From Candidatus Paracaedibacteraceae bacterium (GTDB lineage Bacteria > Pseudomonadota > Alphaproteobacteria > Paracaedibacterales > CAIOTO01): DNA of 64,000 nt. The stretch is from contig JAUYTZ010000018.1 in the NCBI GenBank assembly GCA_030694965.1, forward strand, positions 303,757 through 367,756. Direction: 5' to 3'. Of the stretch, positions 1 to 54,555 are shown in pieces. Each line of letters starts with the position of its first letter. Position 1 is the first letter of the stretch. The translations under genes and the position numbers were made by a program. The notes under the pieces were generated by a model. The model saw nothing but the letters and a program-made list of their open reading frames with translations. It ran no database searches and had not been told where the DNA came from.

Positions 1-1
1 C

Positions 2-1171: not shown

Positions 1172-1201
1172 TTTCAATCTTACATATAGGTTAGTGGTGT
1201 T

Positions 1202-1972
1202 TTGAAGATATCTAATGGGGATGTGCATGTATGGTTTTCTTTAACAAAAGAGCTAAATGATGTAAACTTACTGGCCCGATATAAAGGTTTGTTATCACAA
1301 GATGAATGTAAAAGATTTAATAGTTTTTTTTACAAAAAAGATCGCCAATTGTACTTAATCTCAAGAGCTTTACTGCGTACAACTTTATCAGAATATTCTT
1401 TAGTTTCTCCATGTAATTGGAAATTCTCAAAAAACAATAATGGGAAGCCTTTTATTAATAATAAAAATTTGAGTGAAGAAAAAATTTGTTTTAACCTTAG
1501 CCATACTGATGGTTTAGTTATGGTAGGAGTGACTAAAATGCAAGATATAGGGGTTGATGTTGAACAAGTCTCACGAAATTTTGATTATATGGATATTGCT
1601 TATAGTAATTTCGCGGCAGATGAAATTACTGTTCTTGAATCTATGTCCGGTTCTGATCAAAAAGAATTTTTCTATAAGTACTGGACTTTAAAAGAGTCTT
1701 ATTTAAAAGCAAGAGGAGATGGATTAACAATGCCTTTGAACCTATGCAGTTTTGCGTTATCAACTTGTAGTAAAATAAAATGTAAGTTTTTCGATCAGGC
1801 TGTAGATTGCCATTCAAATTGGAATTTTTTGCAATTCAGTCTTGTCAAAAATTACATTAGTTCCATATGTTTAAAAAGAAATCAAAACTATTCCCCAAGA
1901 ATAAGGGTAAGGCATTGTGTGCCTTTAATAAATAATAAAGAACTTAAAAATATTAAATTTTTGTCATCCTAG
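1202..1972 (+). CDS. Sfp-type 4'-phosphopantetheinyl transferase
   Basis: Sfp-family motifs FNLSHTDG, GVDVE and WTLKESYLKARG. TTG start. Lies 30 nt after the ABC gene and converges on the PKS. Confidence 0.85.
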   Translation: MKISNGDVHVWFSLTKELNDVNLLARYKGLLSQDECKRFNSFFYKKDRQLYLISRALLRTTLSEYSLVSPCNWKFSKNNNGKPFINNKNLSEEKICFNLSHTDGLVMVGVTKMQDIGVDVEQVSRNFDYMDIAYSNFAADEITVLESMSGSDQKEFFYKYWTLKESYLKARGDGLTMPLNLCSFALSTCSKIKCKFFDQAVDCHSNWNFLQFSLVKNYISSICLKRNQNYSPRIRVRHCVPLINNKELKNIKFLSS

Positions 1973-1988: not shown

Positions 1989-4925
1989 TCAGAGCTGTTC
2001 TTGTATAAGTGTTACTTGGTCTTTCAGTGTTGCTGATACAAGCATTTTTCGGGCAGGCACTTTTATGTTAAAAGATTGGTTTACTTTGCGAATTAAGCTT
2101 GTAATGAGAAGTGAATCTCCCCCTAAGCTAAAGAAATTTGATTCATCTTTGATATTATCACAGCCAAGAATATTAGACCAAAGACTTAGCAAGACAGCTT
2201 TTACATCTTTTTGTTTTATTAATAAAATATTGTTTGCTTCATGGTTATCATTTGATGATGCTGGCTCTTTGGAGTTTATGTGATTCTTTTTAAGAGCACA
2301 AGTTACCTCAGGCGCCATCCATTTCGGACCATAAAATGGATAAGTAGGTAAGTGAATGGCTTTGCCACCTGTGCAAAAATAAGAAAGATTAACGGGATAT
2401 CCATAAGTCCAGAGCGCTCCTATGGAAGTCATTATATCGATGCTAATCTCTTCAGAATGATTAGGATTCATGGGTAATGCCTCAAAACCTAAAGACCATG
2501 CCATTGAAGAAAGAGTTTGGCCTGTCCCAATTTCTATAAAAATTGGTTCTTGAAAAAAATCATGCATTACTTGCAATGAATCTAAAAAATAAACAGGTTT
2601 TTTAGCTTGATCTACAAAATAGTCTGACGGCATCTTATGCCCTTTATTATAAATTTGGCCCGTGACGTTTAGTGCAATTGGTATTTTTGTTGGTTGCATG
2701 TTAATTTTGGATAAAGTGCTTTTAAGAGCTGTTAATGCTGATTCAATGAGAGGGGAATGAAAAGCCCGATTGGTCTTAAGAATTGTTGAGCGTGCCGTTT
2801 TGCCTATATTATTTTTAAAAATTTGAATTTCTTCTACTGTACCAGATACTACACAGCCATTCGTAGTATTAATAGCTGAAATACACAGATTAAGCCTTGA
2901 TTTTCTAAGAAGTTCGGTTGTTTCAAAAGCGCTCATATTGACGGCGAGCATTGCCCCTTGAGGGCAATTCTGCATAGACTTTCCCCTCTCCACTACGAAC
3001 TTTACAGCGTCTTCTAAGCTCAGTATTCCAGAAAAATAGGCTGCCGTAACTTCACCAAGGCTATGGCCTGCAACTCCGGCAGGTTTAATGCCTAGAGAAA
3101 GAAGTGACTTTCCTATTGCGTATCCAAGAACAAACAAAGCAGGTTGAGCAATGACTGTTTGATTCATTTCTTCTTCAGGAAAAGCATCATCAAAAAGTGC
3201 TCTTTTTACGGTAATTTTTAAATTTTCTTCAAGATATTGTATGCATGTTTCAATGTTATCCAAAAAACCTGGCAGCGTATTCGCAAAAGCTTTAGCCATG
3301 CCAGGACGTTGACTTCCTTGGCCTGTAAATAAGAAAATGGCAGGCTTTGGACCGTTGATGGGTGCTTGCCTTCTATGAATGATTTCATTTTTATTTAGTT
3401 TTTCTGCAATTTCTTTGCTTGTTCGTCCGCACACTACAAGCCTTTCTGTAAATTCAGTTCGACCATTTGTTAGTGTGTATGCAACGTTTTTGAGATTAGG
3501 ATCGTTTTTAATTAAGTAGTTACTTAGGCGATTCGTTATACAATTTAATGTTTCTAAATCAGCCGCTGAGAGTTGTATAATATGAAATGAATCTTCATTT
3601 TTAGCTGGTTCATGTTCTGTTTGTGGGGCTTGTTCTAGTATGATGTGGGCATTTGTTCCTCCTATACCAAAAGCACTAATAGCCGCTCTGCGCTGATTAA
3701 GATTAGGCCATAGATGTTCTTTGTTATTTTGAACACATAGTGGTGAATCATTTTTTTCCATAAAAGGATTTAGTGTATCAAAGTTTGCAAGTGGAGGTAT
3801 TTTACCTTCCTTAAGCACTTTCATTGTTTTGATAAGTGAAGCAAGTCCTGATGCTGAATCAAGATGACCAATATTTGCTTTAAGAGCACCTATAGCGATC
3901 TGACCTTTTGATGCTCCAAGCCCTTTATATGCTTCTGAGGTTGCAGTCCATTCAATAGGGTCTCCTATGCGTGTGCCTGTTCCATGTGTTTCAAGGTAGC
4001 CTATGGATGATGCTTCAATATTGGCGTTGTGAATTGCTTGCTGGATCACTGAAATTTGCCCAGAAATAGATGGAGAAAAATAGCCTGCCTTTGCAGAGCC
4101 ATCATTATTGATAGCTGTGCCCAAGATAACGCCATAAATTTCTGGAGCCTCGGTCGGAAGTGAAATTAAACGTCTTAGCACAACGCAGGCCACTCCAGAA
4201 CCTTCAACAACTCCATCAGCTTTTTCGTCAAAGGGTCTACAAATACCACTTTCAGAATTAATGCCTCCAGGAATATGTAAGTATCCGCCCTGTGGAAAAG
4301 CAATTCCTGCTGCAACAACTATGGCTTGTTCGCAATCTCCATTATTTAATGCTTGGCAAGCTAAATGCAAACTAACTAGAGATGAGGAGCATGCCGTTTG
4401 AATGGAAACAGCGGGTCCTGTTAAATTAAGCTTATACGCAATTAAGCTGGCTATAAAATCAGGCTCATTTCCGTGTATGATTTGTTCTAGAAAGTCTGGT
4501 TCAAGAGGCCCTTGAGATAACATGGCTCTCGCATATCCGCTCCCACTTCCTGAAGCAAAAACGCCTGTTACTGGTCTGTTAGCAGCATTGGATTTTCCGT
4601 AACCTGCATCTTCAAGTGCGCACCAAGCAGTTTCAAGCATTAGTCGATGTTGTGGATCCATCATTTCCGCATCACGGTGATTAACTCTGAAAACTTTATG
4701 ATCAAATCTATTGGCATCTACAAGGTATCCTCGTACAGGTATATACTCTGGATCATTTATTAAGAATTCAGGAACTCCGGTTTCTCTCAGTTCTTCTTTT
4801 GTTAAACGAGTAGTGAGCTCCTCACCTTTTAGTAAAGAGCTCCACCAATCATCTAATTCACGGGGACCAGGAAGCCTAGCAGAAACGCCAAGTACAGCAA
4901 TATCTTTAGAATTATTTCGTATCAT
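1989..4925 (-). CDS. Type I polyketide synthase, single module KS-AT-carrier (no KR/DH/ER/TE)
   Basis: KS: DIAVLGVSARLPG at the N-terminus, active-site Cys in QTACSSSL (Cys179), His motifs ETHGTGT and KANIGHLDSASG. AT: FLFTGQGSQ, GHSLGE (Ser622), RAFHS (malonyl-type xAFH). C-terminal carrier domain LGGDSLL (Ser938). Confidence 0.92.
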   Translation of the reverse strand: MIRNNSKDIAVLGVSARLPGPRELDDWWSSLLKGEELTTRLTKEELRETGVPEFLINDPEYIPVRGYLVDANRFDHKVFRVNHRDAEMMDPQHRLMLETAWCALEDAGYGKSNAANRPVTGVFASGSGSGYARAMLSQGPLEPDFLEQIIHGNEPDFIASLIAYKLNLTGPAVSIQTACSSSLVSLHLACQALNNGDCEQAIVVAAGIAFPQGGYLHIPGGINSESGICRPFDEKADGVVEGSGVACVVLRRLISLPTEAPEIYGVILGTAINNDGSAKAGYFSPSISGQISVIQQAIHNANIEASSIGYLETHGTGTRIGDPIEWTATSEAYKGLGASKGQIAIGALKANIGHLDSASGLASLIKTMKVLKEGKIPPLANFDTLNPFMEKNDSPLCVQNNKEHLWPNLNQRRAAISAFGIGGTNAHIILEQAPQTEHEPAKNEDSFHIIQLSAADLETLNCITNRLSNYLIKNDPNLKNVAYTLTNGRTEFTERLVVCGRTSKEIAEKLNKNEIIHRRQAPINGPKPAIFLFTGQGSQRPGMAKAFANTLPGFLDNIETCIQYLEENLKITVKRALFDDAFPEEEMNQTVIAQPALFVLGYAIGKSLLSLGIKPAGVAGHSLGEVTAAYFSGILSLEDAVKFVVERGKSMQNCPQGAMLAVNMSAFETTELLRKSRLNLCISAINTTNGCVVSGTVEEIQIFKNNIGKTARSTILKTNRAFHSPLIESALTALKSTLSKINMQPTKIPIALNVTGQIYNKGHKMPSDYFVDQAKKPVYFLDSLQVMHDFFQEPIFIEIGTGQTLSSMAWSLGFEALPMNPNHSEEISIDIMTSIGALWTYGYPVNLSYFCTGGKAIHLPTYPFYGPKWMAPEVTCALKKNHINSKEPASSNDNHEANNILLIKQKDVKAVLLSLWSNILGCDNIKDESNFFSLGGDSLLITSLIRKVNQSFNIKVPARKMLVSATLKDQVTLIQEQL

Positions 4926-5250
4926 GAACTTTTCCTTAAGCTCAAAAAATCAAATTTTAGCTAGTAGCAAAAATTACATTGAAGGTGATTTGTTGCATTA
5001 ACTATATTAAAATTTACACAGATCGTATCTTAGTTATTTGCTTATACATCAAGCGCATATTTTTTTATTAGTAAGTCATGTTTTTGTAAATAATTTCAAT
5101 AACTTTTTGCAAGATTTTTTTAAGAAATTATTTAATAAATTCAACTAAATAAAAAATTGTTTATAAAAATTTTTTAAACTCAGGCAGAGTGGACATAAAT
5201 TGTTGTTTTATGATGAAAACAGTAAATTATTAAAAAAGAATAAAAAGCAT

Positions 5251-5321
5251 TTAGTACACAAGAGAATCTATATTTCTTTTTCCACTTGTGACCAATTAAA
5301 GGCAATGATAGAAATCACTTA
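5251..5321 (+). promoter_or_regulatory. Shared leader/promoter module, copy A (upstream of the oxygenase-LamG-esterase-P450 operon)
   Basis: About 70 nt aligns by hand to the reverse complement of 16678-16748. The core 5282-5310 ccacttgtgaccaattaaaggcaatgata matches in 28/29 positions. It contains a plausible sigma70-type TTGTGA-N17-TAGAAA. Weaker collinear blocks continue to about 5440. Confidence 0.6.
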
Positions 5322-5471
5322 TTCAAAGGCATGTGGGGCGGCAAACCACGAGACAAAAACTCTCTTAATTTTGCTTTATCTTTATCTAGTCCTTAAAAAG
5401 TATTTAAAACCTAAGAAGGTTATAGCAAGTAGCTTATTAAGATATTTGGGGCCTAAAAGGAAAATGAAAAT

Positions 5472-6374
5472 ATGCAAGAAAAAGTTAATATAGATCTTCT
5501 CCTAAAGGCTGCCAGTTCACATTTAATATCTTTCACCGATTTACCGATTTCTCCTGTAATTATTAATGATACATTGAATGTTTCAGAAGAAGACATTCAT
5601 GAAATAGTTGACAGGTACATCAATCATGGTTTTGCAATTGTGCATATTGTTTCAGAACGTCCTTCGCCTGAAACAATAATATCTTTAGGGCACGTTTTTG
5701 AGCTTGGAAAACCTTTTGTTCCTCCTTTATACACTATGGGTGAGTATAAAGCCTCACCCATTGCAAAAATTTCAACACAAGGATGTTCCGCCACTCATCC
5801 AATTTTTCAGCGCGAAGTTGAAGTGAAACTGCATTGCGATGGCACACTACAAAAAATTGGTTTTGTTAAAACAACCGTTATGCTTTGTGAAATGCCTGGT
5901 GCCAAAGGAGGTGAAAATATATTCTTTAATGCCACAGCAGCTTACGCTGAATTGCTAGAAACAGATTTGGATGCTGCAATTGCCATGGCAACCCATGGCT
6001 CGCTAATACGCCAAGCAAACATAAATGGTTGTAGTGATAAAAATATAGGACCAGTTTTTTCTGTAGATAATGGAAAACTTATCTGTAATTATTCTGTGAC
6101 TGAAACGGATAAATTTGTTGCTGCATCTTGTCTTAAAGCTGCTGATCTTGGTCGTGGCGTAGAGTATATGCGAAAAGCTTCCCAACCAGGTGGGGCCCAT
6201 TATTGCCAGGTACGGTTAGAGGCAAATCAAGCTATTATTTTTTCAAATGCTAAACTTGCTCACGGAAGAAAATCATACCATAACGCCCTAGGTTTGAGAA
6301 GATGTCTCTACAGGGGATTATTTTTAAATTATCCAAAAGTGGTTAATAAAAGGCGGTTAAAAATTTCTGTATGA
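5472..6374 (+). CDS. Fe(II)/2-oxoglutarate-dependent oxygenase, TauD/TfdA (clavaminate-synthase-like) family
   Basis: HxD facial triad LHCDG, downstream GGENIFF block (family GGxTxF), distal His/Arg in KLAHGRKSY...RR. Length is about 300 aa. Confidence 0.7.
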   Translation: MQEKVNIDLLLKAASSHLISFTDLPISPVIINDTLNVSEEDIHEIVDRYINHGFAIVHIVSERPSPETIISLGHVFELGKPFVPPLYTMGEYKASPIAKISTQGCSATHPIFQREVEVKLHCDGTLQKIGFVKTTVMLCEMPGAKGGENIFFNATAAYAELLETDLDAAIAMATHGSLIRQANINGCSDKNIGPVFSVDNGKLICNYSVTETDKFVAASCLKAADLGRGVEYMRKASQPGGAHYCQVRLEANQAIIFSNAKLAHGRKSYHNALGLRRCLYRGLFLNYPKVVNKRRLKISV

Positions 6375-6449
6375 TAATGAGATTACCAAAAAAACTCCTT
6401 ATTTTGTATTTATGCAACTTAATGTGTTTTAAAACTATACGAAGTAAAA

Positions 6450-7238
6450 ATGGAGAAGAAAATGAATTTGAATTTAAAAATTAAAGATAAAATTAATCCA
6501 TCAAACCAATCACTGACTTTAAAAGGGGATTGGAATTTTGAAAATGATTTTTTAGATTCTTCTGGGCTAGGAAATGATTTATCTCCAAATAATAGCCCTT
6601 GTCTTATTAAAGATTCTAATTTTTCGGGCGCTGTTAAGCTAGATGGGCGCACACAATCTTTGGAGGGAAAGAACCCAGCGGTGAACACAGAAGGAAGTTA
6701 TACAGTTGCTGCGTGGGTTCGTCTTGATAGCTCGCTTATGAGAGAAGGACTCTCTCTTGAAACCGGAGAATACGCACTAACCGCAATTAGTCAAGATACA
6801 CCTACTCATAGCAACTTTTACTTAGGCCTTCGTCAAGTTGATGAAAAACGATCAGAGAGCATAGTGATTTCTTCATTGAGGTGGAATTTTACGGTGGCGC
6901 CCATTGATGGGACTCAAACAGGTCCTGTTGAATGGCAGCATGCGTATACTAAAAGTCCTCTTGATGATTCAATTTTAGATAAATGGTTTTTACTTGTAGG
7001 TGTGTGTGATGCTGCTGCGAGAACAGCTAGTATATACGTACCCACAATAAATGAAGAAGGGATTATTCATTGGCCAGCTAATTTTATTCAGTTGCCTGCA
7101 AAAGGAGGAATCCAAGTTGGTAAAGGGCGTTGGCTCACAAAAGCTGTTGACCATTGGCCTGGAAGTATAGGGCCAGTTAAGATTTTCTCTGGTGTGATGT
7201 CAAAAGAAGAAGTTTATAAGATTTATAATAATCTTTAA
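6450..7238 (+). CDS. LamG / concanavalin-A-like jelly-roll domain protein (no signal peptide)
   Basis: Typical Laminin_G_3 N-terminal pattern: GDWNFENDFLDSSGLGNDLSP...FSGAVKLDG...SYTVAAWVRLDS. Confidence 0.6.
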   Translation: MEKKMNLNLKIKDKINPSNQSLTLKGDWNFENDFLDSSGLGNDLSPNNSPCLIKDSNFSGAVKLDGRTQSLEGKNPAVNTEGSYTVAAWVRLDSSLMREGLSLETGEYALTAISQDTPTHSNFYLGLRQVDEKRSESIVISSLRWNFTVAPIDGTQTGPVEWQHAYTKSPLDDSILDKWFLLVGVCDAAARTASIYVPTINEEGIIHWPANFIQLPAKGGIQVGKGRWLTKAVDHWPGSIGPVKIFSGVMSKEEVYKIYNNL

Positions 7239-7320
7239 TTTAATAATTTCCGCTGATCTAATTTTTACCTATATAAGAATTAAATTGTGAAATAGAAATG
7301 TTTGAAAGGAACTTTATTTT

Positions 7321-8337
7321 ATGGTGAAAAATATCAATATGGAAGAATCACAAAATTCCTGCAAGGCTGTTTCACACCCGCCTTTTGATGATGAGCTTAA
7401 GCCAATTTTGCATGAAATCCTTAAAAAAATTAAAGTTCCTTTCACTCTTGATCTTATTGACAAGGCTCGCGAAGCTATGAATTTAGGAAGTTTAACAGAC
7501 GATCAAATTCGGCGAGGAGGGGCTTTTGAATTTGAAGAAAAAAAGATTCCAGGTCCTGAAGGAGCGCCAAGCATTTCTGTTATTGTATGTAGACCTAGAG
7601 CAACACCAGGACCCCACCCAGTAATATACAATATACATGGAGGAGGGATGGTTTCTGGAAATTATCGGACTGCAGAACTTGCTAGAGAACTTAATAGAGC
7701 CGAAGCTTTGCAAATGGCTGTAGTTTCAGTAAACTATCGACTAGCTCCTGAAAATCCTGACCCCGCACCAGTTGAGGATTGCTATGCTGCATTAGTTTGG
7801 CTTGTGAAACATTCAAAGTCATTAAAGTTAGATGCAAATCGAATCATTGTTAGTGGTAATAGCGCGGGAGGAGGGTTAGCAGCTGGAGTGGCTCTTTTAG
7901 CTCGCGATAGGGGAGGCCCTTTTTTAATTGGACAGATGCTTCAGTGCCCGATGCTAGATGACAGATGTGACTCTTTCTCAATTAAACAGATGAAAGGGGT
8001 AGGTCTGTGGGAATCGACTTCTAATCTCACAGGCTGGTCAGCCTTGCTAGGAGACAAAAGAGGAACTGAAAGCGTTTCATGTTATGCTGCTCCTGCTCGA
8101 GCCAAAAATTTTTCTGGTCTTCCTCCTGCTTTTATAGACGTAGGTGCTGTCGAAGCTTTAAGAGATGAGGCAGTCTTTTATGCTAATCATATTTGGCAAG
8201 CAGGAGGGGATGCTGAGTTGCATGTTTGGAGCGGCGCTTTTCATAGTTTTGATCAGTGGGCGCCAGATGCTATTGTTTCAAAATCTGCTGACCAAGTTCG
8301 AATAGATTGGATGCGTCGCTTATTAAAACGAAATTAA
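7321..8337 (+). CDS. alpha/beta-hydrolase, hormone-sensitive-lipase-type esterase
   Basis: Oxyanion motif HGGGMVSG, nucleophile elbow GNSAGGG (GxSxG), and downstream Asp and His (HSFD). Confidence 0.85.
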   Translation: MVKNINMEESQNSCKAVSHPPFDDELKPILHEILKKIKVPFTLDLIDKAREAMNLGSLTDDQIRRGGAFEFEEKKIPGPEGAPSISVIVCRPRATPGPHPVIYNIHGGGMVSGNYRTAELARELNRAEALQMAVVSVNYRLAPENPDPAPVEDCYAALVWLVKHSKSLKLDANRIIVSGNSAGGGLAAGVALLARDRGGPFLIGQMLQCPMLDDRCDSFSIKQMKGVGLWESTSNLTGWSALLGDKRGTESVSCYAAPARAKNFSGLPPAFIDVGAVEALRDEAVFYANHIWQAGGDAELHVWSGAFHSFDQWAPDAIVSKSADQVRIDWMRRLLKRN

Positions 8338-8359
8338 AGAAGAAATAAAAGAGGATTTT

Positions 8360-9559
8360 ATGAAACAGTTTCCTTATGCTACCGAATGTTCTTTAAATCC
8401 TAATTGTCTCGTTGATCCTACTTTTCATGCGGCCGGAAATCCTCATGCGCTTTGGTCTTGGATGAGAGAAAATGAGCCAATATATTGGCATGAGCCCACG
8501 AAATTTCCTGGCTTTTGGTCTATTACACGCCATGAAGATATAAGAGAAGTGTATGGGAATCCTGAAATATTTAGTTCAGCTCGGGGTGTTTTATTGCGCC
8601 AAGAAAAATCAGGGGACGACCCCGGCGGCGGCTTAACTTTAGCTTTAACAGATCCTCCTCGCCATAAGCAGCTTCGAGCGATCATGACAAGTTGGTTCTC
8701 AATAAGTTATGCAAAATCTCTTGAAAGCGCTATAAGAAGAAAAATCAAAGAACTTTTACTTGAAGCAGTAGAAAAAAAAGTAATTAATTTTACACACGAT
8801 ATATCATCTAAGTTAACACTCTTCGTCACGTGCCATATTTTAGGTATACCTCCTAAAGATCATAAAGACGTTTTGCATTGGGCTCATGAGTCTTTTGAAA
8901 AGGCAGTTCCTTTAGCCTCTCATAAAGAATTTATGCTATATTTTTGTGAATTAATGGAAAGCAAGCGTGCATGCCCCAGTTCTGATTTAGCGAGTGCTAT
9001 TGTTCATGGCATGATTGATAATAAAAAACTTGCTGAAGAAGAAATATTATTGAACTTTGAGAATTTAATAGGAGCAACAGAAAATGCAGGCTTATCAATA
9101 TCAAGCGGAGTTCTTGCATTTATTGAATACCCAGAGAGCTGGAAATTATTACAGACTGATCGTAAACTTATAATATCTGCTACCGAAGAGATTCTTCGAT
9201 GGGCGTCAAGTGCATCTCATAGTATGAGGACAATTAAAAAGACTTATACTCTTAATAACACTAATTTGTTAGCAAACCAAAAAATAGTACTTTGGCTTCC
9301 ATCTGCGAATAGAGATGATAAAATCTTTGAAAATCCTTTTAAATTTGACATAACACGTACCCCAAATAGGCACATAGCTCTTGGATATGGCGAGCATTTT
9401 TGTATTGGAAATGCTCTTGGTAGAATGCAAATTCGTATATTGCTTGATGAACTTCTCGGCTTTGATTGGATTCTTGAACTTGAAAGTGCACCCATTCATC
9501 TTAGGTCTATTTATGTTAATGGGCCAGAAAATTTACCTATTAGGTTTGTAGATAAGTAA
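8360..9559 (+). CDS. cytochrome P450 monooxygenase
   Basis: Heme-binding loop GYGEHFCIGNALG, ExxR (EEILRW), about 400 aa. The start lies 22 nt after the esterase stop. Confidence 0.9.
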   Translation: MKQFPYATECSLNPNCLVDPTFHAAGNPHALWSWMRENEPIYWHEPTKFPGFWSITRHEDIREVYGNPEIFSSARGVLLRQEKSGDDPGGGLTLALTDPPRHKQLRAIMTSWFSISYAKSLESAIRRKIKELLLEAVEKKVINFTHDISSKLTLFVTCHILGIPPKDHKDVLHWAHESFEKAVPLASHKEFMLYFCELMESKRACPSSDLASAIVHGMIDNKKLAEEEILLNFENLIGATENAGLSISSGVLAFIEYPESWKLLQTDRKLIISATEEILRWASSASHSMRTIKKTYTLNNTNLLANQKIVLWLPSANRDDKIFENPFKFDITRTPNRHIALGYGEHFCIGNALGRMQIRILLDELLGFDWILELESAPIHLRSIYVNGPENLPIRFVDK

Positions 9560-9579
9560 TCTTACAGATTGAGTATTAA

Positions 9580-10362
9580 TTATCTCTTCACAAATTGGCA
9601 TAGTTTTTTATGAATGAGCTGAGGGCTAGCAATGATTCCAGTTCCGAGTGGAGTTATGATCCCTCCAGCTTCTTGCACAATAAGGGAGCCCGCAGACCAA
9701 TCCCAAGGAGATAGTTCATTTTCATAAAATCCATCAAAGCGACCACATGCAACCCAACAGAGATCTAAAACTGAGCTTCCACAACTCCTTATATCCCTTA
9801 CTTTTAGAAGTAGATCTGACATGATTTTCGTTTGATATAAGCGTTTTCTACGATTGTAAGAATATTCAGTTGATAGCAGAGCCTCGGAAAAGTCTTTTAT
9901 TTCATTTACTGCTATTTTGGAGTCATTAAGAACAGCACCATTATTTTTTATGGCTGAAAAGATCTCATTTCTTGCAATGTCATAAATAACTCCAACCTTA
10001 GGCTTCCAACACCACCCATCAAATTCTTCGCATGAGATACTAACTGCCCAGTGTGGAATTTTGTATATATAATTTATTGTTCCATCAAGTGGATCAAAAA
10101 CCCACCTCAAGCCGGTTTTAGACTTGATGTTAGTTCCTTCTTCTCCAATGATGCCATCATTGGGTCTTGCTTGCATTATGATATTTTTGATGACTGTTTC
10201 ACCTAATTTATCTGCGTCTGTGATCGGATTTGTATTGTCCGATTTAAATTCAACCTGTATTGGATGCGCATAAGATAAGATTTTTTGCCCTGCAGAAATA
10301 GCAGCTTTTGTGGCTAGTTCTAGTAATTCATTTTCATCATTGTTCGTCATACTACCCTTCAC
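9580..10362 (-). CDS. inositol monophosphatase family protein (SuhB-like)
   Basis: IMPase motifs IGEEG, DPLDGTINY and WDWSAG. Confidence 0.85.
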   Translation of the reverse strand: MKGSMTNNDENELLELATKAAISAGQKILSYAHPIQVEFKSDNTNPITDADKLGETVIKNIIMQARPNDGIIGEEGTNIKSKTGLRWVFDPLDGTINYIYKIPHWAVSISCEEFDGWCWKPKVGVIYDIARNEIFSAIKNNGAVLNDSKIAVNEIKDFSEALLSTEYSYNRRKRLYQTKIMSDLLLKVRDIRSCGSSVLDLCWVACGRFDGFYENELSPWDWSAGSLIVQEAGGIITPLGTGIIASPQLIHKKLCQFVKR

Positions 10363-10561
10363 TTTTAATCAACAGTTTGTTTTCTTTCATCACCTATTCA
10401 GTAGCCTGTTATAGCCGGGCTTATCCGGTTGCACTTTATCAGTTTAAGATAAATATTCTATCGTTTTTTAGGGCAGCGGATGATAGGATGATTAGGCATA
10501 ATAATATCAATTTTAAAGTTTCTCATTTGTATTTCCTTAGTATTTATATAATACACAATTA

Positions 10562-13500
10562 TTACGGGAGAGACCAATTAAGGATTTGTTCAAGGTATTG
10601 CTCAAAATATTTAGCAATATTTTGGATGCAGCTGTCAGAAATCAAACTTGAGCGCCATGATATAATAAGGCATAAGTTTCCATTTTCTTTTGGCCATATT
10701 TCAGCATGAAGTTCCAGAGGTAGTTCTAGGTAAGGTTGGCGAATAAACTCTGTTTTTAATTCTTTTAAAACTAATTTAGGAGACGGGTTGTCTTGAAGGG
10801 CAAAAAGCGTTTGAAACAAAGGGGGTCTTCCAGTTTTTTGTGACTTTATTATCTGTAAAATCTGCGTCAATGGAATATCTTGATTTGCTAATGAGCGTTG
10901 GATAAGGCGACTCGTTTCTTTTAGTCCTAAAATCCCATTTTTAAATATTTTTTTCGTTATTCTAGGGAAAAGCATATTTAAATGACAATTTATTGTATTT
11001 TTATTTATAAAGTGATTACGTTGTCTTATTGGAATGCCAACACAAAAATCGGTTTGACTCGTGACTTTTTTTAAAGCATGGATCCATGCGTGAAAGAGCA
11101 CCTCAAATCGACTAACTCTATTTTTTAAAGCAAACTCGTCAATAATTTCTGTTTTTGCGCTAAGAATAAGTGTGACGTTTTCTGCATGTAAATTAAAATC
11201 GTTTTGAGGTTTATTAAAATTTTGTGGCCATATAATTTCTGGGGTGCCCTCAAGATTTTTAGAAAAATCTTTCACTTCTTTTAATACCTCAATATCTAAG
11301 CTTGGATAGATTGATAAAGGAGAGATCAATTTTGAGCTTTTGTAGTGATTTGAAAAATTAGGAGAGTTAGAAAATATATTATACCCCTCTGATAGGCTTT
11401 CTGCCAATAAGTGTTCAGAATAACCATCGAAAGCTATATGATGGATAGCGCAGCCAAAAAAATACTCTTTGGAATTAGCAAGGGAAATGACCGCTGTTTT
11501 CCAAATTTTTCCTTCAAGTGGATTGAGATCTTTTGAAAGTTCTGAGCGTAAACTATTTACTGCAAATTCTGCTGATTCCTCACTTGGTAAAATTTCTAAG
11601 ACAGGAAAGGGAACAGATGTGCTTTTGTCACTAGAATCAAAATCAAGTAAGTATTTAGATCTCAATGATTTGTTATTAATATGAACATAGTTTATAGCTT
11701 CTTTTAGAATGCTCAAGCTTAAATCACCTTCTATTTTCCAAGTCATCAGGCACCTTGATGCAAGATTTGATGGATTAACAAGATGCTGAGTTAAATACAT
11801 TAATTGCATTTGATTCATTTTATTACTATCAAAATACACGTGCATATTAACATTGTTTTGATTATCCTTTAAAAATTCACCTAAAGAACTAATTGTGTGG
11901 TGTTTGTAAATTTTTGATAAAGAAATAGAGCAATTAAGCTCTTTGCCAAGCCGTGAACACAACTGTCCCATATTAAGAGAATTTAATCCTAGTTGACTGA
12001 ATGGAACATCTACAGGGAAATAATCTTGGTTTAAAATTTGGCTTAGTATTTTCCCTATAGTTTTTTCTATCGGAGTTTTATAGCTTTCATTTGAGTGATA
12101 CGTGTTGTTTTTTGTTTCTAACATTGACGATTCAATTAATGCTTGTTCATCAAGTTTACCTTGCGGAGTCAGTGGAAATGAGTCGACAGGTATCACCTTC
12201 GATGGGCATTGATAAGCTACTAGTTTGGATTTTAATTGCTGATGTGCGTCATGTAACTTATCGCCTAACTTTAAGGGGATGCAAAAAGCTATTAATTCTT
12301 GTGATGTTGTTGTTGGGTTGTTTTTGGAAACTACTCTGCAAGATTTGATATTATGCAAGTGTTGTTCGATTTGATGTTCGACATCTGAAAGCTCAATCCG
12401 ATGGCCGTGAACTTTAACTTGACGATCATTTCGACCGTGGAAATGTAATAAATTATTTTTCCAAAAACCTAAATCACCTGTAGAATAAACCCTTTTGGTA
12501 ACACCTTCTATTGCAATTTCTTTAAATTTATTATGTGTTAATCGTGGGTCATTGAGATATCCAATTGCTAACCCAGTGCCGTTAATGTAAATCTGACCTA
12601 CTTCATCATCAGCGCAAATTTCCATTTTTTCATTTAAAATATACACTTGCGTTTGTGGAACTGGTGTGCCAATTGGAATTCCAGATGAAATTTCACAGTC
12701 GCTTAAGCTGATATGGTGAGTTGTAGTAAAAATAGTGCTTTCAACAGGACCGTAACCATTTATAAGTTTTATTTGAGGATGACGAGTTAAAAAAAGTTTC
12801 ACATGTGTAGGCGAAAGCCGCTCTCCACCGATCATGAGTTGCTTAAGTCCTGTAAATGAATTTATGTCATCTTCAACACTTATATTAAATAGGCTGCTTG
12901 TTATCCAGGCTGTATTAACTCCATACTTACTGATTCCTTTTCGAAGTTCCGCAGAAGAAAGATAAGGTTCATCTATTAGCCATGCTGACCCACCATTAAC
13001 TAAAGCCCCCCACAACTCAAGAGAAAGTGCATCCCAAGGTAATGCAGCAGCTAGAGGAATAATGGTGCTAGAATTAAAATCAACAAAATTATTTTCTTTA
13101 AATAGCCTCATTGTTCCTTTATGTGTAGAGATAACGCCTTTTGGCTCTCCGGTAGTGCCTGAAGTGAAGAAAACTGTGGAAGGAGACGAAGGGTTGACGT
13201 CTATGCTTGGAAATGTTTTTTCTATTGTGTTATGCGGAATTATAGGTGGTAAGATATTGATCCCATTAAAAGATGATGACTTATTTTTAGTGATTATAAA
13301 CTTTGGTTTTAGTGCATTTATAACTTTTTGTATTCTGCTTTTTGGCCAGCATGGATCAATAAGTGTATAGGCTGCGCCTGCTTTAAGAACAGCAAGTAGC
13401 GATATAACTAAGCTTGGTGACCTTGGAAGTAAAATTGGCACAAAAGATCCTATATCCACTCCGCTACTTATTATTTGGTTTGCCAGAAAGGAAGCAGAGT

Positions 13501-13651
13501 TATTTAATTCATAATATGATAATTTTTTTTCTTTCCATATGAGAGCTGTAGCTTTGGGGGTTCTATGAGCATGACTTTCGAACGCAAAATGTAGGGAATT
13601 AAAACCCTCTAGTTGTTTGTTTGATAGTTTATTTTTGCTTTTTTGTAACAT
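10562..13651 (-). CDS. Non-ribosomal peptide synthetase, single module A-T-C (terminal condensation domain, no TE/R)
   Basis: A-domain cores: LKAGAAYTLIDP (A2), FFTSGTTGEPKGV (A3), NGYGPVEST (A5), YSTGDLG (A7), GRNDRQVKVHGHRIEL (A8), PLTPQGKLD (A10). T domain LGLNSL (Ser558). C domain HHIAFDGYS (His737/His738, Asp742). Confidence 0.92.
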   Translation of the reverse strand: MLQKSKNKLSNKQLEGFNSLHFAFESHAHRTPKATALIWKEKKLSYYELNNSASFLANQIISSGVDIGSFVPILLPRSPSLVISLLAVLKAGAAYTLIDPCWPKSRIQKVINALKPKFIITKNKSSSFNGINILPPIIPHNTIEKTFPSIDVNPSSPSTVFFTSGTTGEPKGVISTHKGTMRLFKENNFVDFNSSTIIPLAAALPWDALSLELWGALVNGGSAWLIDEPYLSSAELRKGISKYGVNTAWITSSLFNISVEDDINSFTGLKQLMIGGERLSPTHVKLFLTRHPQIKLINGYGPVESTIFTTTHHISLSDCEISSGIPIGTPVPQTQVYILNEKMEICADDEVGQIYINGTGLAIGYLNDPRLTHNKFKEIAIEGVTKRVYSTGDLGFWKNNLLHFHGRNDRQVKVHGHRIELSDVEHQIEQHLHNIKSCRVVSKNNPTTTSQELIAFCIPLKLGDKLHDAHQQLKSKLVAYQCPSKVIPVDSFPLTPQGKLDEQALIESSMLETKNNTYHSNESYKTPIEKTIGKILSQILNQDYFPVDVPFSQLGLNSLNMGQLCSRLGKELNCSISLSKIYKHHTISSLGEFLKDNQNNVNMHVYFDSNKMNQMQLMYLTQHLVNPSNLASRCLMTWKIEGDLSLSILKEAINYVHINNKSLRSKYLLDFDSSDKSTSVPFPVLEILPSEESAEFAVNSLRSELSKDLNPLEGKIWKTAVISLANSKEYFFGCAIHHIAFDGYSEHLLAESLSEGYNIFSNSPNFSNHYKSSKLISPLSIYPSLDIEVLKEVKDFSKNLEGTPEIIWPQNFNKPQNDFNLHAENVTLILSAKTEIIDEFALKNRVSRFEVLFHAWIHALKKVTSQTDFCVGIPIRQRNHFINKNTINCHLNMLFPRITKKIFKNGILGLKETSRLIQRSLANQDIPLTQILQIIKSQKTGRPPLFQTLFALQDNPSPKLVLKELKTEFIRQPYLELPLELHAEIWPKENGNLCLIISWRSSLISDSCIQNIAKYFEQYLEQILNWSLP

Positions 13652-13718: not shown

Positions 13719-14978
13719 TCATGTTGAGATTCCAGCCGTATTTCTTAGATTAAATTCTGGATTTAAATTATATATTAACACGACATTTTTACTCACTCGA
13801 TCTACCTCTTTGTATACAGCTGAAGCATATTTATCTGAGAATTTAGGAATTGAATTTAAAACCTTACATTCTTCAATTTCTTTATCACTAAACGGAAGCG
13901 CCATACCGATAAGAGGGTAAATCTCTATCGCAGCATGAGTATCAAACTGCTTGGTGCGTTGTGAATCTAAAATTTCATTTGCTTCATTGAGTTCAAGCCC
14001 TACAATCAGTGTATCTTTGCCATTTACAAATCCACGCGCAATACCTAAATGCCCTTTTAAATAACTCATTACTTTTCTTCGATCTTCCATAAAATCTAAA
14101 TAAAGAGAGTTCGCTTCAACATCTCCGAAGCAATGGGCCAATTCAACATCAGGTGAAGGCCATTTCATAAGAAATCGACGGTAGTTGAGAGTTTCGGTCT
14201 TACGATTTTCTTCGGGATCGCGGGCATGTGGAAGGTGAATAGCCCTCACTTTTTCAGAAAGAATAATAGGGATTTTATTTTTGCATATCCGGTAACTCCA
14301 TTCCAGATCATCAACGCCCCAACCCTGAAAAGTTTCATCGAAATATAGATCTAGTTCTCGAACTACCTCAAGCGGTAAAGCAATAAAACCCGTCCACCCA
14401 AATGCCCATGGAATAACGTGCCTCACTTGAAAACGTGGATCTTTTGGTTTTCCTGTAGAGTTTTCAAGATCCATTATAGCATCTTGATAGTTTTCGTAAG
14501 GTTTTACTTGAACACTTTCTATAAAGCCTTCATTGTTATTTTCGTAGCCAATAACTTGTCCAACAACGCATATTCTTTGTTCGAACGCAAAGTGAGTGTC
14601 ATAGAGGTTTTGCAAAGCATTTGGTGGTAAAAGCGTGTCTGCATCCATTTGTACAATAACTTGGCCGGTGGCTTGGCGCATTGCAAGGTTTCTTGCCCAA
14701 GGAATCATAAAATTATCAGGAGACAAGACTGTAATAATATTAATTTTATTTATGTACTTATTGCATAAAGAGATGAGGTTCTCGCAATAATCCATGGCTC
14801 CAATAATTACTTCAAAGTCATCTTTATGCATTGTTTGATGGGCTAAGGCTTCTAAAACTACAGCAATATTTTCTAATCTTTGTTTGTACGGAATTGAAAC
14901 ACTTAGCTTTTTTTGATTTATTTTCCCCCTTACTATTTTATGTGAGACGTTAAACTGCTCTTTAAAATTTAGCTTCAT
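13719..14978 (-). CDS. family 2 glycosyltransferase (GT-A fold) with extra C-terminal domain
   Basis: LSVSIPY N-terminal strand, DxD motif QMDADT, GWGVDDLEWSYR block as in the galactosyltransferase-like C-terminal region. About 130 additional C-terminal residues are unassigned. Confidence 0.75.
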   Translation of the reverse strand: MKLNFKEQFNVSHKIVRGKINQKKLSVSIPYKQRLENIAVVLEALAHQTMHKDDFEVIIGAMDYCENLISLCNKYINKINIITVLSPDNFMIPWARNLAMRQATGQVIVQMDADTLLPPNALQNLYDTHFAFEQRICVVGQVIGYENNNEGFIESVQVKPYENYQDAIMDLENSTGKPKDPRFQVRHVIPWAFGWTGFIALPLEVVRELDLYFDETFQGWGVDDLEWSYRICKNKIPIILSEKVRAIHLPHARDPEENRKTETLNYRRFLMKWPSPDVELAHCFGDVEANSLYLDFMEDRRKVMSYLKGHLGIARGFVNGKDTLIVGLELNEANEILDSQRTKQFDTHAAIEIYPLIGMALPFSDKEIEECKVLNSIPKFSDKYASAVYKEVDRVSKNVVLIYNLNPEFNLRNTAGIST

Positions 14979-15455: not shown

Positions 15456-15490
15456 AATCAAATCCAAATTATATAATTATTGTTTTATTA

Positions 15491-54479: not shown

Positions 54480-54555
<76 letters not shown>

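What the first reader, a model, noticed from the sequence alone, without database searches (positions are those of the whole stretch)
1989..13651. Non-canonical assembly-line logic: A-T-C NRPS ending in a condensation domain plus a KS-AT-T PKS with an NRPS-style carrier, and no TE or reductase release domain
Seen. The NRPS starts directly with an A domain and ends with a full C domain carrying an intact HHIAFDG motif. The PKS has all three KS catalytic residues (Cys179 in TACSSS, HGTGT, NIGHLD), an AT with GHSLGE/RAFHS, and a C-terminal carrier whose Ser938 sits in LGGDSLL. That motif is the form typical of NRPS PCPs rather than PKS ACPs. Neither protein has KR, DH, ER, TE or R domains, and no stand-alone thioesterase is present. 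Established: terminal C domains can release chains by intermolecular amide or ester formation or by cyclisation, and xAFH in the AT correlates with malonyl-CoA selectivity. Inference: the most economical order is aminoacyl-S-T (NRPS), then KS-catalysed Claisen extension with malonyl-S-T (PKS). The NRPS C domain would then release the beta-keto-gamma-amino acyl chain in trans, either onto a small nucleophile or as a tetramate-like ring. Alternatively, the HSL-type esterase at 7321-8337 hydrolyses the thioester.
Basis: partly seen in the sequence, partly recalled or inferred. Interest (0 to 1): 0.65.

Follow-up and report, generated by a model that had tools for sequence, protein, structure and literature searches.

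The report
Split NRPS–PKS line; partners lie upstream
The two enzymes are real and intact, but they are only part of an ordinary-looking peptide–polyketide assembly line: its missing histidine-loading module and thioesterase lie just beyond the window's left edge, so the "no release enzyme" puzzle mostly disappears.

Summary
The PKS carrier is PCP-like. There is no KR, DH, ER, TE or R domain and no TE gene in the window.

The cluster, however, runs off the window. A contig from the same sequencing run overlaps window 1-1916 at 100% identity. It shows a second A-T didomain, a type II thioesterase, a BioA-like aminotransferase and a pyrimidine-nucleoside phosphorylase 0.8-6.1 kb upstream of nt 1. 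The A-T carries a published histidine code.

The summed domain set is A-T-C + A-T + KS-AT-T + TE. It equals that of the characterised CorA synthetase, which makes a dipeptidyl β-keto acid. The window's P450 is closest to β-hydroxylases of carrier-bound amino acids.

The same core recurs in about 34 actinomycete genomes and in Rickettsiaceae and Rickettsiella MAGs. I found no named product.

Verdict: a split, near-canonical hybrid line in an uncharacterised cluster family. The order of steps, the release enzyme and the sugar/nucleoside-type accessory genes remain unresolved.

The parts
1..1171 (+). 3' part of an ABC exporter gene (permease/ATPase) that begins about 676 nt upstream of the window
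   Evidence: ABC_tran hit. The full 615-aa gene is seen at L009 15456-17303, which overlaps the window at 100%. An 80%-identical orthologue sits next to the PPTase and PKS in L007.
1202..1972 (+). Sfp/HetI-type 4'-phosphopantetheinyl transferase
   Evidence: ACPS and AASDHPPT_N domains; HetI model E 1e-41. Same position in L007/L008.
1989..4925 (-). Minimal type I PKS module KS-AT-T (978 aa). KS at nt 3780-4907, AT at 2529-3338, PCP-like carrier at 2007-2195.
   Evidence: Cys179, HGTGT, NIGHLD, GHSLGE, RAFHS, Ser938. KS neighbours. Carrier neighbours. 120 full-length homologues of about 960-1050 aa.
5472..6374 (+). Divergent TauD-family Fe(II)/2-oxoglutarate oxygenase
   Evidence: PF02668 E 3e-10. 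HxD...H triad conserved in 5 orthologues. No solved relative. Fused to the esterase in L089.
6450..7238 (+). Laminin_G_3 / ConA-like protein, one of three or four paralogues in the cluster
   Evidence: Paralogues at L009 265-1089 and 7160-7939. Present in L005, L006, L007, L020, L089.
7321..8337 (+). Hormone-sensitive-lipase-type alpha/beta hydrolase (HGGG, GNSAG); the most conserved gene of the cluster family
   Evidence: Abhydrolase_3 E 5e-50. Motifs. 50-68% identity to actinomycete orthologues in 17 of 34 loci.
8360..9559 (+). Cytochrome P450 of the clade that beta-hydroxylates carrier-bound amino acids
   Evidence: After a reconstructed CYP125 ancestor (8vxg, 4e-76), the best solved relatives are 4l0e/4pwv (1e-72) and 3mgx (2e-54). 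I identify these from memory as P450sky and OxyD; the tool labels them only 'P450 monooxygenase'. Found next to the A-T-C gene in 27 of 34 orthologous loci.
9580..10362 (-). Inositol-monophosphatase-family phosphatase
   Evidence: PF00459 E 2e-53. Recurs in L005, L007, L020, L029, L089.
10562..13651 (-). NRPS A-T-C (1029 aa). A at nt 12155-13582 (code DALLMGGIFK), T at 11870-12052 (Ser558), C at 10580-11815 (HHIAFDG 737).
   Evidence: The A-T-C architecture is kept in essentially all relatives above 30% identity.
13719..14978 (-). Family-2 glycosyltransferase
   Evidence: 72% identical orthologue in L002; 35-50% in 7 actinomycete loci.
15033..15467 (-). Glyoxalase/bleomycin-resistance-fold protein (candidate self-protection)
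   Evidence: Orthologues in L002, L005, L006, L029.
15491..16567 (-). APH-family kinase (candidate self-resistance or sugar kinase)
   Evidence: PF01636 E 9e-41. Nearest solved: APH(2'')-Id and macrolide 2'-phosphotransferase, E about 1e-9.
19029..21431 (+). GH20 beta-N-acetylhexosaminidase with a signal-like N-terminus
   Evidence: Orthologues directly beside the A-T-C gene in L002, L006, L029.
21542..22375 (+). Short-chain dehydrogenase; probable right edge of the cluster. TGT, PFK, carbonic anhydrase and DnaJ/DnaK follow.
   Evidence: 58% identical orthologue in the Rickettsiaceae locus L029.

Best explanation
The two proteins are two of four pieces of a split, essentially collinear hybrid NRPS-PKS line. 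The other two pieces lie 3.5-6.1 kb upstream of window nt 1.

Proposed steps:
1. The A-T-C protein loads a medium-sized hydrophobic amino acid (code DALLMGG[I/V]FK, Val/Leu/Met-like; not assigned).
2. The stand-alone A-T loads L-histidine (code DSALIAEVWK).
3. The P450 beta-hydroxylates a carrier-bound amino acid, most likely the His.
4. The C domain joins residue 1 (donor, its own T) to the His amine.
5. The KS-AT-T module adds one malonyl unit to the His carbonyl.
6. The resulting N-aminoacyl-(beta-OH)His-derived beta-keto acyl thioester is released hydrolytically by the type II thioesterase and/or the conserved HSL-type hydrolase.

This is the A-T-C-A-T-KS-AT-ACP-TE logic shown for CorA. 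There the dipeptidyl beta-keto acid decarboxylates and cyclises to a 5-methylpyrazinone.

Shown here: the domains, motifs, gene neighbourhood, codes and conservation.

Inferred: the substrate of A1; the timing (the C may act before or after the KS, giving the same skeleton); the releasing enzyme; the final product; and the roles of the TauD-like, aminotransferase, phosphorylase, phosphatase, GT2, GH20 and LamG genes.
For: (1) Missing partners exist on the same contig. L009 overlaps window 1-1916 at 100%. Upstream it carries A-T (638 aa), TE (248 aa), Aminotran_3, PYNP and the ABC gene that continues into the window. P0248 is recorded on the 368,016-bp contig that also holds P0001 and P0121.

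(2) The four pieces co-occur. L006 has A-T-C, Abh3, KS-AT-T, A-T, TE and Aminotran_3 in one row. Among 34 genome loci with an A-T-C at least 35% identical, within ±10 kb: PKS in 20, P450 in 27, Abh3 in 17, A-T in 13, TE in 11. Among 43 unrelated NRPS loci the counts are 1, 0, 1, 2, 2.

(3) In actinomycetes, PKS, A-T and TE usually lie consecutively on one strand, divergent from A-T-C followed by P450.

(4) The A-T code DSALIAEVWK is a published His code that tolerates beta-OH (PMC12283262).

(5) The P450 is closest to 4l0e/4pwv and 3mgx, which I identify as P450sky and OxyD.

(6) The C domain has HHxAFDG invariant and is almost always fused after A1-T1. This fits T1 as the in-cis donor.

(7) The KS is closest to NRPS-fed KSs; ClbC is one by name.

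(8) CorA has the same summed domain set. Its myxobacterial relatives include split versions with a stand-alone TE (PMC10979478).
Against: - The TE is of the type II family (RifR, human TE2, RedJ, YbtT, SrfD). Such enzymes are often editing enzymes rather than release enzymes.
- In four relatives the TE is fused to the His A-T (about 900 aa). The operon order is PKS, A-T, TE. Both would fit better if the His carrier were the last carrier.
- A His-specific A-T(-TE) plus P450 is also the make-up of the NikP1/NikQ cassette (recalled from memory), which makes free beta-hydroxyhistidine.
- The PCP-like carrier on the PKS suggests it docks to a C domain.
- No sequence comparison with CorA itself could be made. 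CorA-type fused proteins were not among the top 120 PKS or NRPS homologues.
- About ten conserved accessory genes are unexplained.
- Nothing here is biochemical.
Confidence: 0.55

Rival explanations
1. Precursor cassette plus C-domain release; this is the closest rescue of the first reader's model. The upstream A-T, the TE and the P450 form a NikP1/NikQ/NikP2- or BpsD/OxyD/Bhp-type cassette that only makes free beta-hydroxyhistidine. The main line is then A-T-C plus KS-AT-T. Residue 1 goes to the KS and is extended on the PCP-like carrier. The C domain releases the chain by amide formation with a free amine. That amine could be beta-OH-His, a derivative of it, or an amino sugar such as 5-amino-5-deoxyribose.
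For: His code on the A-T. P450 of the carrier-dependent beta-hydroxylase clade. Type II TE, with A-T-TE fusions as in NikP1 (the NikP1 architecture is from memory). PCP-like carrier on the PKS. A possible aminoribose route in the cluster (PMC4902027).
Against: The C is nearly always fused directly after A1-T1 and never after the PKS carrier. That is hard to explain if T1 never visits it. In actinomycetes PKS, A-T and TE lie consecutively on one strand, which suggests physical partnership of PKS and A-T. No MbtH-like domain was noticed. CorA shows that the same domain set works collinearly.
Confidence: 0.2
2. Non-collinear order aa1, then C2, then His. A1-T1 hands residue 1 to the KS. After malonyl extension the PKS carrier is the donor for the C domain and His-S-T2 is the acceptor. 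The TE next to T2 then releases a gamma-amino-beta-keto-acyl-histidine pseudo-tripeptide. The BioA-like transaminase could convert it to a vicinal diamine.
For: Operon order PKS, A-T, TE, and A-T-TE fusions, place T2 last. The PCP-like PKS carrier would have to dock in a C donor site. The aminotransferase is BioA-like; BioA turns an alpha-amino ketone into a vicinal diamine (enzymology from established knowledge).
Against: It requires the C domain to ignore the T domain it is fused to. No KS-AT-T-C fusion exists among 1.84 billion representatives. The aminotransferase always sits next to a nucleoside phosphorylase in the window-type clusters. That points to a nucleoside substrate instead.
Confidence: 0.12
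3. The HSL-type esterase (7321-8337) is the chain-releasing hydrolase, and the type II TE only edits mis-primed carriers.
For: The esterase is the most conserved gene of the family: 50-68% identity between an alphaproteobacterium and actinomycetes. It is adjacent to the megasynthase genes in most loci. Its catalytic HGGG and GNSAG motifs are intact.
Against: No HSL-family enzyme acting on carrier thioesters was identified here. In L089 it is fused to the TauD-like oxygenase, and in Streptomyces to a RidA domain. This ties it to small-molecule tailoring. Nearest solved relatives are ordinary lipases and esterases, including heroin esterase.
Confidence: 0.1

Closest known systems
CorA coralinone synthetase and cor-like clusters of myxobacteria (5-alkylated pyrazinones; PMC10979478)
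   Same: Identical summed domain set: A-T-C, A-T, KS-AT-carrier, TE. Two amino acids plus one malonyl unit. No KR, DH or ER. The paper reports split versions with a stand-alone TE gene.
   Different: Here the line is cut into four proteins. Module 2 is His-specific rather than aliphatic. A carrier-dependent P450 is present. The TE is type II. The PKS carrier is PCP-like. There is no corB peptidase. About ten sugar/nucleoside-type accessory genes accompany it. No sequence comparison with CorA was possible, and the product is unknown.
ClbC, a stand-alone colibactin PKS fed in trans by an NRPS; probably also ClbI
   Same: About 900-1000-aa free-standing PKS whose KS takes an aminoacyl or peptidyl chain from an NRPS carrier. 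It is among the closest solved KS relatives: 8xbl (ClbC), plus 8xjy/8xju, which the tool labels only 'Polyketide synthase' and which I take to be ClbI.
   Different: Different pathway and partners. Only 329-333 bits over the KS. Colibactin carriers and ATs have their own peculiarities.
NikP1/NikQ/NikP2 (nikkomycin) and BpsD/OxyD/Bhp (balhimycin) beta-hydroxy-amino-acid cassettes
   Same: A-T didomain (His-specific in NikP1), a haem or P450 hydroxylase acting on the carrier-bound amino acid, and a thioesterase. A-T-TE fusions occur in relatives.
   Different: Here the cassette-like genes lie consecutively with a PKS in actinomycete relatives and sit beside an A-T-C whose C needs an acceptor. 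No MbtH-like domain was noticed. Release of free beta-OH-His is untested. The cassette architectures are recalled from memory, not tested against their sequences.
LipL/LipO/LipP/LipM/LipN aminoribosyl pathway of MraY-targeting nucleoside antibiotics (PMC4902027)
   Same: Co-clustered 2-OG oxygenase, class III (BioA-like) aminotransferase, pyrimidine-nucleoside phosphorylase and a glycosyltransferase. The aminotransferase and phosphorylase genes are always adjacent.
   Different: No LipM-type nucleotidyltransferase and no LipK-type transaldolase. The oxygenase is too divergent to assign. In Streptomyces 'type II' clusters the aminotransferase occurs without the phosphorylase or the TauD gene within the ±10-kb flanks.
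Terminal-C release systems: JamQ-type pyrrolinone formation, VibH-type amine capture, fungal CT domains
   Same: A C domain at the C-terminus of a protein with intact HHxxxDG, in a line whose last extension is a malonyl unit.
   Different: Those C domains have no downstream carrier-bound acceptor. Here a cognate A-T module and a TE are encoded in the cluster. These systems are cited from memory.

Membership tests
Minimal type I PKS module fed by an NRPS (hybrid KS-AT-T) | KS Cys-His-His triad intact (not KSQ) | tested here: met
   Cys179 in TACSSS, HGTGT 314, NIGHLD 351. TACSS is present in 118 of 120 homologues.
Minimal type I PKS module fed by an NRPS (hybrid KS-AT-T) | AT with GHSxG nucleophile and malonyl-type xAFH motif | tested here: met
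   GHSLGE 620 and RAFHS 720. GHSLGE in 115 of 120 and [RH]AFHS in 90 of 120 homologues. Specificity is inferred from the motif only.
Minimal type I PKS module fed by an NRPS (hybrid KS-AT-T) | KS groups with KSs that accept aminoacyl or peptidyl chains | tested here: inconclusive
   Nearest solved KSs are a trans-AT bimodule KS (466 bits), ClbC, 8xjy/8xju, and chains deposited as 'Hybrid NRPS/PKS' and 'NRPS/PKS protein' (303-347 bits). DEBS and Pks13 score about 225 bits; the FabF model scores 127 against a cutoff of 494. No proper phylogeny was built.
Split bimodular NRPS (A-T-C followed in trans by A-T) | Catalytic C domain (HHxxxDG) after the first carrier | tested here: met
   HHIAFDG 737; H737, H738, D742 and G743 are invariant in 26 sequences. 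Ordinary C type: the nearest are a DhbF cross-module construct and the TycC C domain in 2jgp, and the C1-C7 motifs resemble C rather than E domains.
Split bimodular NRPS (A-T-C followed in trans by A-T) | A cognate downstream A-T module encoded in the same cluster | tested here: met
   A-T (638 aa, LGGHSL carrier) at 4.2-6.1 kb upstream of nt 1. Co-occurs in 13 of 34 orthologous loci within ±10 kb, against 2 of 43 controls.
Split bimodular NRPS (A-T-C followed in trans by A-T) | The C domain actually condenses T1-bound donor with T2-bound acceptor | not testable with these tools
   Needs reconstitution or complex modelling. No informative gene fusion was found.
cor-like dipeptide + malonate lines (CorA) | Total domain set A-T-C-A-T-KS-AT-carrier-TE with no reductive domains | tested here: met
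   compared with PMC10979478.
cor-like dipeptide + malonate lines (CorA) | Sequence relatedness to CorA, the corB peptidase neighbour, and a 5-methylpyrazinone product | not tested
No peptidase gene is in the cluster. The product is unknown.
Carrier-dependent beta-hydroxy-amino-acid cassette (NikP1/NikQ-like) | His-specific A-T, P450 of the PCP-dependent hydroxylase clade, and a thioesterase | tested here: met
   Code DSALIAEVWK. P450 close to 4l0e/4pwv (1e-72) and 3mgx (2e-54), taken to be P450sky and OxyD. Type II TE with GHSMG.
Carrier-dependent beta-hydroxy-amino-acid cassette (NikP1/NikQ-like) | Releases the free hydroxylated amino acid rather than passing it on | not testable with these tools
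   Biochemical question.
   Both are present upstream of nt 1 and in relatives.
LipL/O/P/M/N aminoribosyl pathway | 2-OG oxygenase + class III aminotransferase + pyrimidine-nucleoside phosphorylase + glycosyltransferase | tested here: inconclusive
   All four enzyme classes are present. PYNP scores 463 bits against a TIGR02644 cutoff of 409; the aminotransferase is BioA-like. The substrate of the oxygenase is unassignable.
LipL/O/P/M/N aminoribosyl pathway | LipM-type sugar-1-phosphate nucleotidyltransferase | tested here: not met
   No NTP-transferase domain occurs in any gene from L009 position 1 to window 22375.

The most novel reading that the evidence does not exclude
The line may not be collinear. 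The C domain fused behind A1-T1 could act on the PCP-like carrier of the PKS. It would then either build an aa1-C2-His pseudo-peptide or off-load the chain onto a pathway-made amine such as beta-hydroxyhistidine or 5-amino-5-deoxyribose. The whole cluster would then make a new histidine-containing, glycosylated or aminoribosylated peptide-polyketide with a self-protection set of kinase, glyoxalase-fold protein, GT2 and secreted GH20. This cluster has moved between actinomycetes and obligate or facultative intracellular bacteria (Paracaedibacteraceae, Rickettsiaceae, Rickettsiella).
Probability: 0.2. Interest if true: 0.6.

Novelty: new member of a known kind. Interest (0 to 1): 0.3.

Why it matters
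For the finding as posed, the result is deflationary. An apparent release-less, C-terminated assembly line is an artefact of where the window was cut. Cluster-level claims about absence need the flanks.

What remains of interest is the cluster family. A six-gene core (A-T-C, His A-T, TE, KS-AT-T, P450, HSL hydrolase) is shared at 36-68% identity between many actinomycetes and several intracellular Proteobacteria. I could find no named product for it. It has two alternative accessory gene sets.

A culturable Streptomyces orthologue offers a direct route to the compound that an uncultured protist symbiont probably makes.

Tried and rejected
- A single-protein scan of genome contigs with the NRPS found nothing. 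The MAG is not in that collection. An alignment-based rescan worked.
- Exact look-ups of the PKS and the PPTase found no record. The upstream sequence was reached only through the orthologue-guided A-T protein P0248.
- The Rickettsia buchneri 'PKS' and 'aminoglycoside' clusters (PMC8770908) have different gene content. The 'Ca. Megaira' paper names no product.
- Literature searches on domain strings, vicinal diamines, hydroxyhistidine/NikQ and the A1 code gave no characterised orthologue.
- The A1 code DALLMGG[IV]FK could not be assigned. It is nearest to published Val (DALWIGGTFK) and Met (DVFYLGGVFK) codes.
- A search for Rosetta-stone fusions of the C domain across 1.84 billion representatives found no KS-AT-T-C or C-A-T architecture. 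The order of steps therefore stays open.
- PDB searches for the TauD-like protein, both single-sequence and profile, found no usable relative.
- I considered an epimerisation-domain reading of the 'C' domain and rejected it. The motifs are C-type and the nearest solved domains are C domains.
- I considered nagstatin or iminosugar-type products because of the GH20 and a possible aminoribose route. I dropped this for lack of any test and because neither A code is Gly-like.
- Larger matches in L030 and L031 turned out to be an A-T-C gene followed by a separate gene of about 520 aa in a different cluster type.

Full report
**Observation**

The region holds two intact megasynthase genes on the minus strand.
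- The ORF at 1989-4925 (978 aa) is KS(7-382)–linker–AT(530-799)–carrier(911-973).
- The ORF at 10562-13651 (1029 aa) is A(24-499)–T(534-594)–C(613-1024). No other Pfam domain is found in either.

- Cys179 in TACSSS, HGTGT at 314, NIGHLD at 351.
- GHSLGE at 620, RAFHS at 720, Ser938 in LGGDSLL.
- HHIAFDG at 737.

These motifs are family properties. Among 120 full-length PKS homologues, TACSS occurs in 118, GHSLGE in 115, [RH]AFHS in 90 and LGGDSL in 112. HHxAFDG is invariant in 26 NRPS homologues.

The PKS carrier really is PCP-like. Its closest solved relatives are NRPS carriers (PvdL, LgrA, TycA, PaxA, TycC); ACPs come far behind. The NCBIfam hits for that stretch are NRPS models.

The KS is not KSQ-like and not FabF-like. 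The FabF model scores 127 bits against a cutoff of 494. The nearest solved KSs are from NRPS-fed or trans-AT modules: 7zma at 466 bits, ClbC at 333, 8xjy/8xju at 329, and chains deposited as 'Hybrid NRPS/PKS' and 'NRPS/PKS protein' at 303-309. DEBS scores about 225.

The C domain is remote from every solved one; the best is a DhbF A-T-C construct at E 4e-12. It is of the ordinary condensation type.

tblastn with relatives' proteins finds no thioesterase, second A-T, aminotransferase or phosphorylase anywhere in the 64 kb.

**Where the window comes from and what lies beyond it**

The NRPS and PKS are 100% identical to proteins of a 'Candidatus Paracaedibacteraceae bacterium' MAG, on a contig of 368,016 bp.

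Relatives of the NRPS showed a recurrent set of partners the window lacks: a stand-alone A-T of about 640 aa, a PF00975 thioesterase, a class III aminotransferase and a nucleoside phosphorylase.

I searched with the A-T of the closest relative. This returned P0248, 54% identical, from the same MAG and the same 368,016-bp contig.

Its Logan contig (L009) comes from run SRR13727522. That run also gave L001, which is identical to window 2072-23651. L009 positions 16133-18048 equal window 1-1916 at 100%.

Reading L009 leftwards from the window gives, in window coordinates:

| Feature | Window coordinates |
|---|---|
| ABC exporter (continues into the window) | −676..1171 |
| Pyrimidine-nucleoside phosphorylase | −2127..−772 |
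| BioA-like aminotransferase | −3452..−2127 |
| Thioesterase | −4218..−3472 |
| A-T | −6131..−4215 |

Further out lie a 2OG-Fe oxygenase, a LamG protein, a second ABC exporter, a small unknown protein, an SDR, a redoxin, a methyltransferase and another LamG protein.

On the right, the cluster ends near 22.4 kb. TGT, PFK, carbonic anhydrase and DnaJ/DnaK follow, and the rest of the window is housekeeping.

Both are there.

**What the extra parts are**

That segment reproduced its known code DAWTIAAICK. The stand-alone A-T and eight orthologues give DSALIAEVWK or a one-residue variant of it. A 2025 survey lists this as a histidine code that accepts the β-OH modification (PMC12283262).
- *The A-T-C.* Its code is DALLMGG[I/V]FK in all nine sequences examined except one (DALLLGGIFK). 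I could not assign it. It is nearest to published Val and Met codes.
- *The thioesterase.* It has GHSMG and belongs to the type II family (RifR 2e-37, human TE2, RedJ, YbtT, SrfD).
- *The P450 (8360-9559).* After a reconstructed CYP125 ancestor, it is closest to 4l0e/4pwv (1e-72) and 3mgx (2e-54). From memory, these are P450sky and OxyD, both β-hydroxylases of carrier-bound amino acids.

**The cluster family**

An alignment-based scan of species-representative genomes found 553 relatives and returned 79 loci. I called ORFs in all loci and assigned them by blastp to the cluster's genes.

34 loci have an A-T-C at least 35% identical to the window's. The table counts partners found within ±10 kb. 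Many loci are cut by contig ends. The control column is 43 loci with unrelated NRPSs.

| Partner | Loci of 34 | Identity | Controls of 43 |
|---|---|---|---|
| PKS | 20 | 43-47% | 1 |
| P450 | 27 | 43-57% | 0 |
| HSL hydrolase | 17 | 50-68% | 1 |
| A-T | 13 | 40-45% | 2 |
| TE | 11 | 39-51% | 2 |

The hydrolase is the best conserved gene of all.

The usual actinomycete layout is ←TE←A-T←PKS | A-T-C→P450→(RidA-)hydrolase.

Besides actinomycetes, the cluster occurs in a Rickettsiaceae MAG (L029). A 46%-identical A-T-C, with TauD-like and glyoxalase genes nearby, occurs in a Rickettsiella MAG (L040). It also occurs in several metagenomic contigs at 44-74% identity.

Two accessory sets exist.
- The window type has TauD-like oxygenase, aminotransferase–phosphorylase pair, IMPase-family phosphatase, GT2, LamG proteins, GH20, glyoxalase-fold protein and APH kinase. 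It is also seen in L006, L020, L029 and L089.
- A Streptomyces type has PhyH, polysaccharide deacetylases, an FAD/ALO oxidase, two ATP-grasp ligases and RidA.

I found no paper naming a product.

**How it most likely works**

The summed domain set is A-T-C + A-T + KS-AT-T + TE. This is exactly that of CorA (A-T-C-A-T-KS-AT-ACP-TE).

CorA was reconstituted in vitro. It makes a dipeptidyl β-keto acid that decarboxylates and cyclises to 5-methylpyrazinones. Its myxobacterial relatives include versions with split genes and a stand-alone TE (PMC10979478).

The most economical reading is therefore a split but collinear line:
1. Residue 1 on T1 is condensed by the in-cis C domain with His on T2. The His is β-hydroxylated by the P450.
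2. The KS-AT-T adds one malonyl unit.
3. A hydrolase releases the chain.

The C could equally act after the KS, on the free amine of the His-derived chain sitting on the PCP-like PKS carrier. That gives the same skeleton, and it would explain why that carrier looks like a PCP.

I put 0.55 on this family of schemes.

**What argues otherwise**

- The TE is type II and in four relatives is fused to the His A-T. The operon order PKS–A-T–TE would make T2 the last carrier. Hence the rival order aa1→C2→His (0.12).
- A His-specific A-T(-TE) plus P450 is also the make-up of the NikP1/NikQ cassette for free β-hydroxyhistidine (architecture recalled from memory).
- Against both rivals: a search of 1.84 billion representative proteins with the C domain alone found it, above 30% identity, only behind A-T, as a fragment, or rarely alone. 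It was never fused behind a PKS carrier or in front of an A domain. The C is thus tied to T1.
- The HSL hydrolase as release enzyme (0.1) is untested. Its fusion to the TauD-like oxygenase in L089 and to RidA in Streptomyces points to small-molecule tailoring.

**Accessory genes**

The TauD-like oxygenase has a conserved HxD…H triad but no solved relative.

The aminotransferase is BioA-like (302 bits, cutoff 405). It always lies next to a nucleoside phosphorylase. That is PYNP in most loci, above the TIGR02644 cutoff in the window's cluster, and a PNP_UDP_1 enzyme in L006.

Oxygenase, aminotransferase, phosphorylase and glycosyltransferase are the enzyme classes of the LipL/LipO/LipP/LipN route from UMP to an aminoribosyl donor (PMC4902027). 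There is no LipM-type nucleotidyltransferase, however. In Streptomyces-type clusters the aminotransferase occurs without the other two within the flanks I could see. I leave this as a lead.

The APH kinase is nearest to antibiotic sugar-hydroxyl kinases. GH20 has a signal-like N-terminus. Together with GT2 and the glyoxalase-fold protein, this looks like a self-protection or pro-drug set, but that is inference.

**Comparison, novelty, verdict**

In workings this is a CorA-like dipeptide-plus-malonate hybrid line. Its PKS piece resembles the free-standing NRPS-fed PKS ClbC. Its His module resembles NikP1/NikQ.

Membership in the cor family proper is not established, because there is no sequence comparison, no corB and no product.

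The specific claim of a non-canonical, release-less, C-terminated two-protein line is not sustained. The domain-level observations are accurate.

I classify it as a new member of a known kind, in an uncharacterised and unusually widely transferred cluster family. Interest is 0.3.

The most novel reading still open is a non-collinear use of the C domain, or release onto a pathway-made amine, giving a new glycosylated His-containing hybrid in a protist symbiont. I give it about 0.2.

Noticed in passing
window 1-22375 plus L009 1-16132: The same biosynthetic cluster is shared between an amoeba-symbiont-type alphaproteobacterium (Paracaedibacteraceae MAG), a Rickettsiaceae MAG (L029), probably a Rickettsiella MAG (L040, where only the A-T-C, TauD-like and glyoxalase genes were seen) and dozens of actinomycetes. 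Identities are 36-68%, implying inter-phylum transfer. In the closest relative the cluster is broken by IS/transposase genes (L007 5824-7216, 13564-14475).
   Followed up: partly
window 7321-8337; L089 15478-17418; L004 14361-15833: The HSL-type hydrolase is the most conserved gene of the family (50-68% identity across phyla). It occurs as a fusion with the TauD-like oxygenase (646 aa) in one Streptomyces and with a RidA domain in others. Its role is unexplained.
   Followed up: partly
L009 12680-15360 (window −3452..−772); also L002, L005, L006, L029, L089: A BioA-like aminotransferase is always adjacent to a nucleoside phosphorylase (PYNP, or non-homologous PNP_UDP_1 in L006). With the TauD-like oxygenase and GT2, this resembles the LipL/LipO/LipP/LipN aminoribose route, but no nucleotidyltransferase is present.
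   Followed up: partly
window 6450-7238; L009 265-1089, 7160-7939 and possibly 4508-5278: Three or four paralogous Laminin_G_3/ConA-like proteins of about 260 aa lie inside one biosynthetic cluster. They recur in relatives and share an N-terminal 'WNF...D.SGN..DL' stretch. No function is suggested by any library.
   Followed up: no
window 17105-18721: A 538-aa ORF with a hydrophobic N-terminus sits in the lowest-GC stretch of the region (about 29%). It has no Pfam or NCBIfam hit and no homologue in any related locus. It occupies the position next to APH where relatives L002 and L003 carry the A-T/TE/aminotransferase/phosphorylase block. This suggests a rearrangement or insertion.
   Followed up: partly
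window 19029-21431: The GH20 hexosaminidase has a signal-like N-terminus and a 220-aa N-terminal extension. It is conserved directly beside the A-T-C gene in L002, L006 and L029. It could be a pro-drug-activating enzyme or a resistant target copy.
   Followed up: no
P0173, P0233; P0380, P0415: Architectural variants occur in the family. Some PKS orthologues carry an inserted methyltransferase domain (KS-AT-MT-T, about 1300 aa). A few genomes appear to encode the C domain as a separate protein of about 440 aa.
   Followed up: no
window 54480-54555 and 63900-63985: tRNA-Lys(CTT) and tRNA-Tyr(GTA). The rest of the window (22.4-64 kb) is housekeeping: TGT, PFK, DnaJ/DnaK, polyprenyl synthase, E2 of a 2-oxoacid dehydrogenase, Omp85, TrkH and an Mrp/Nuo subunit.
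   Followed up: no
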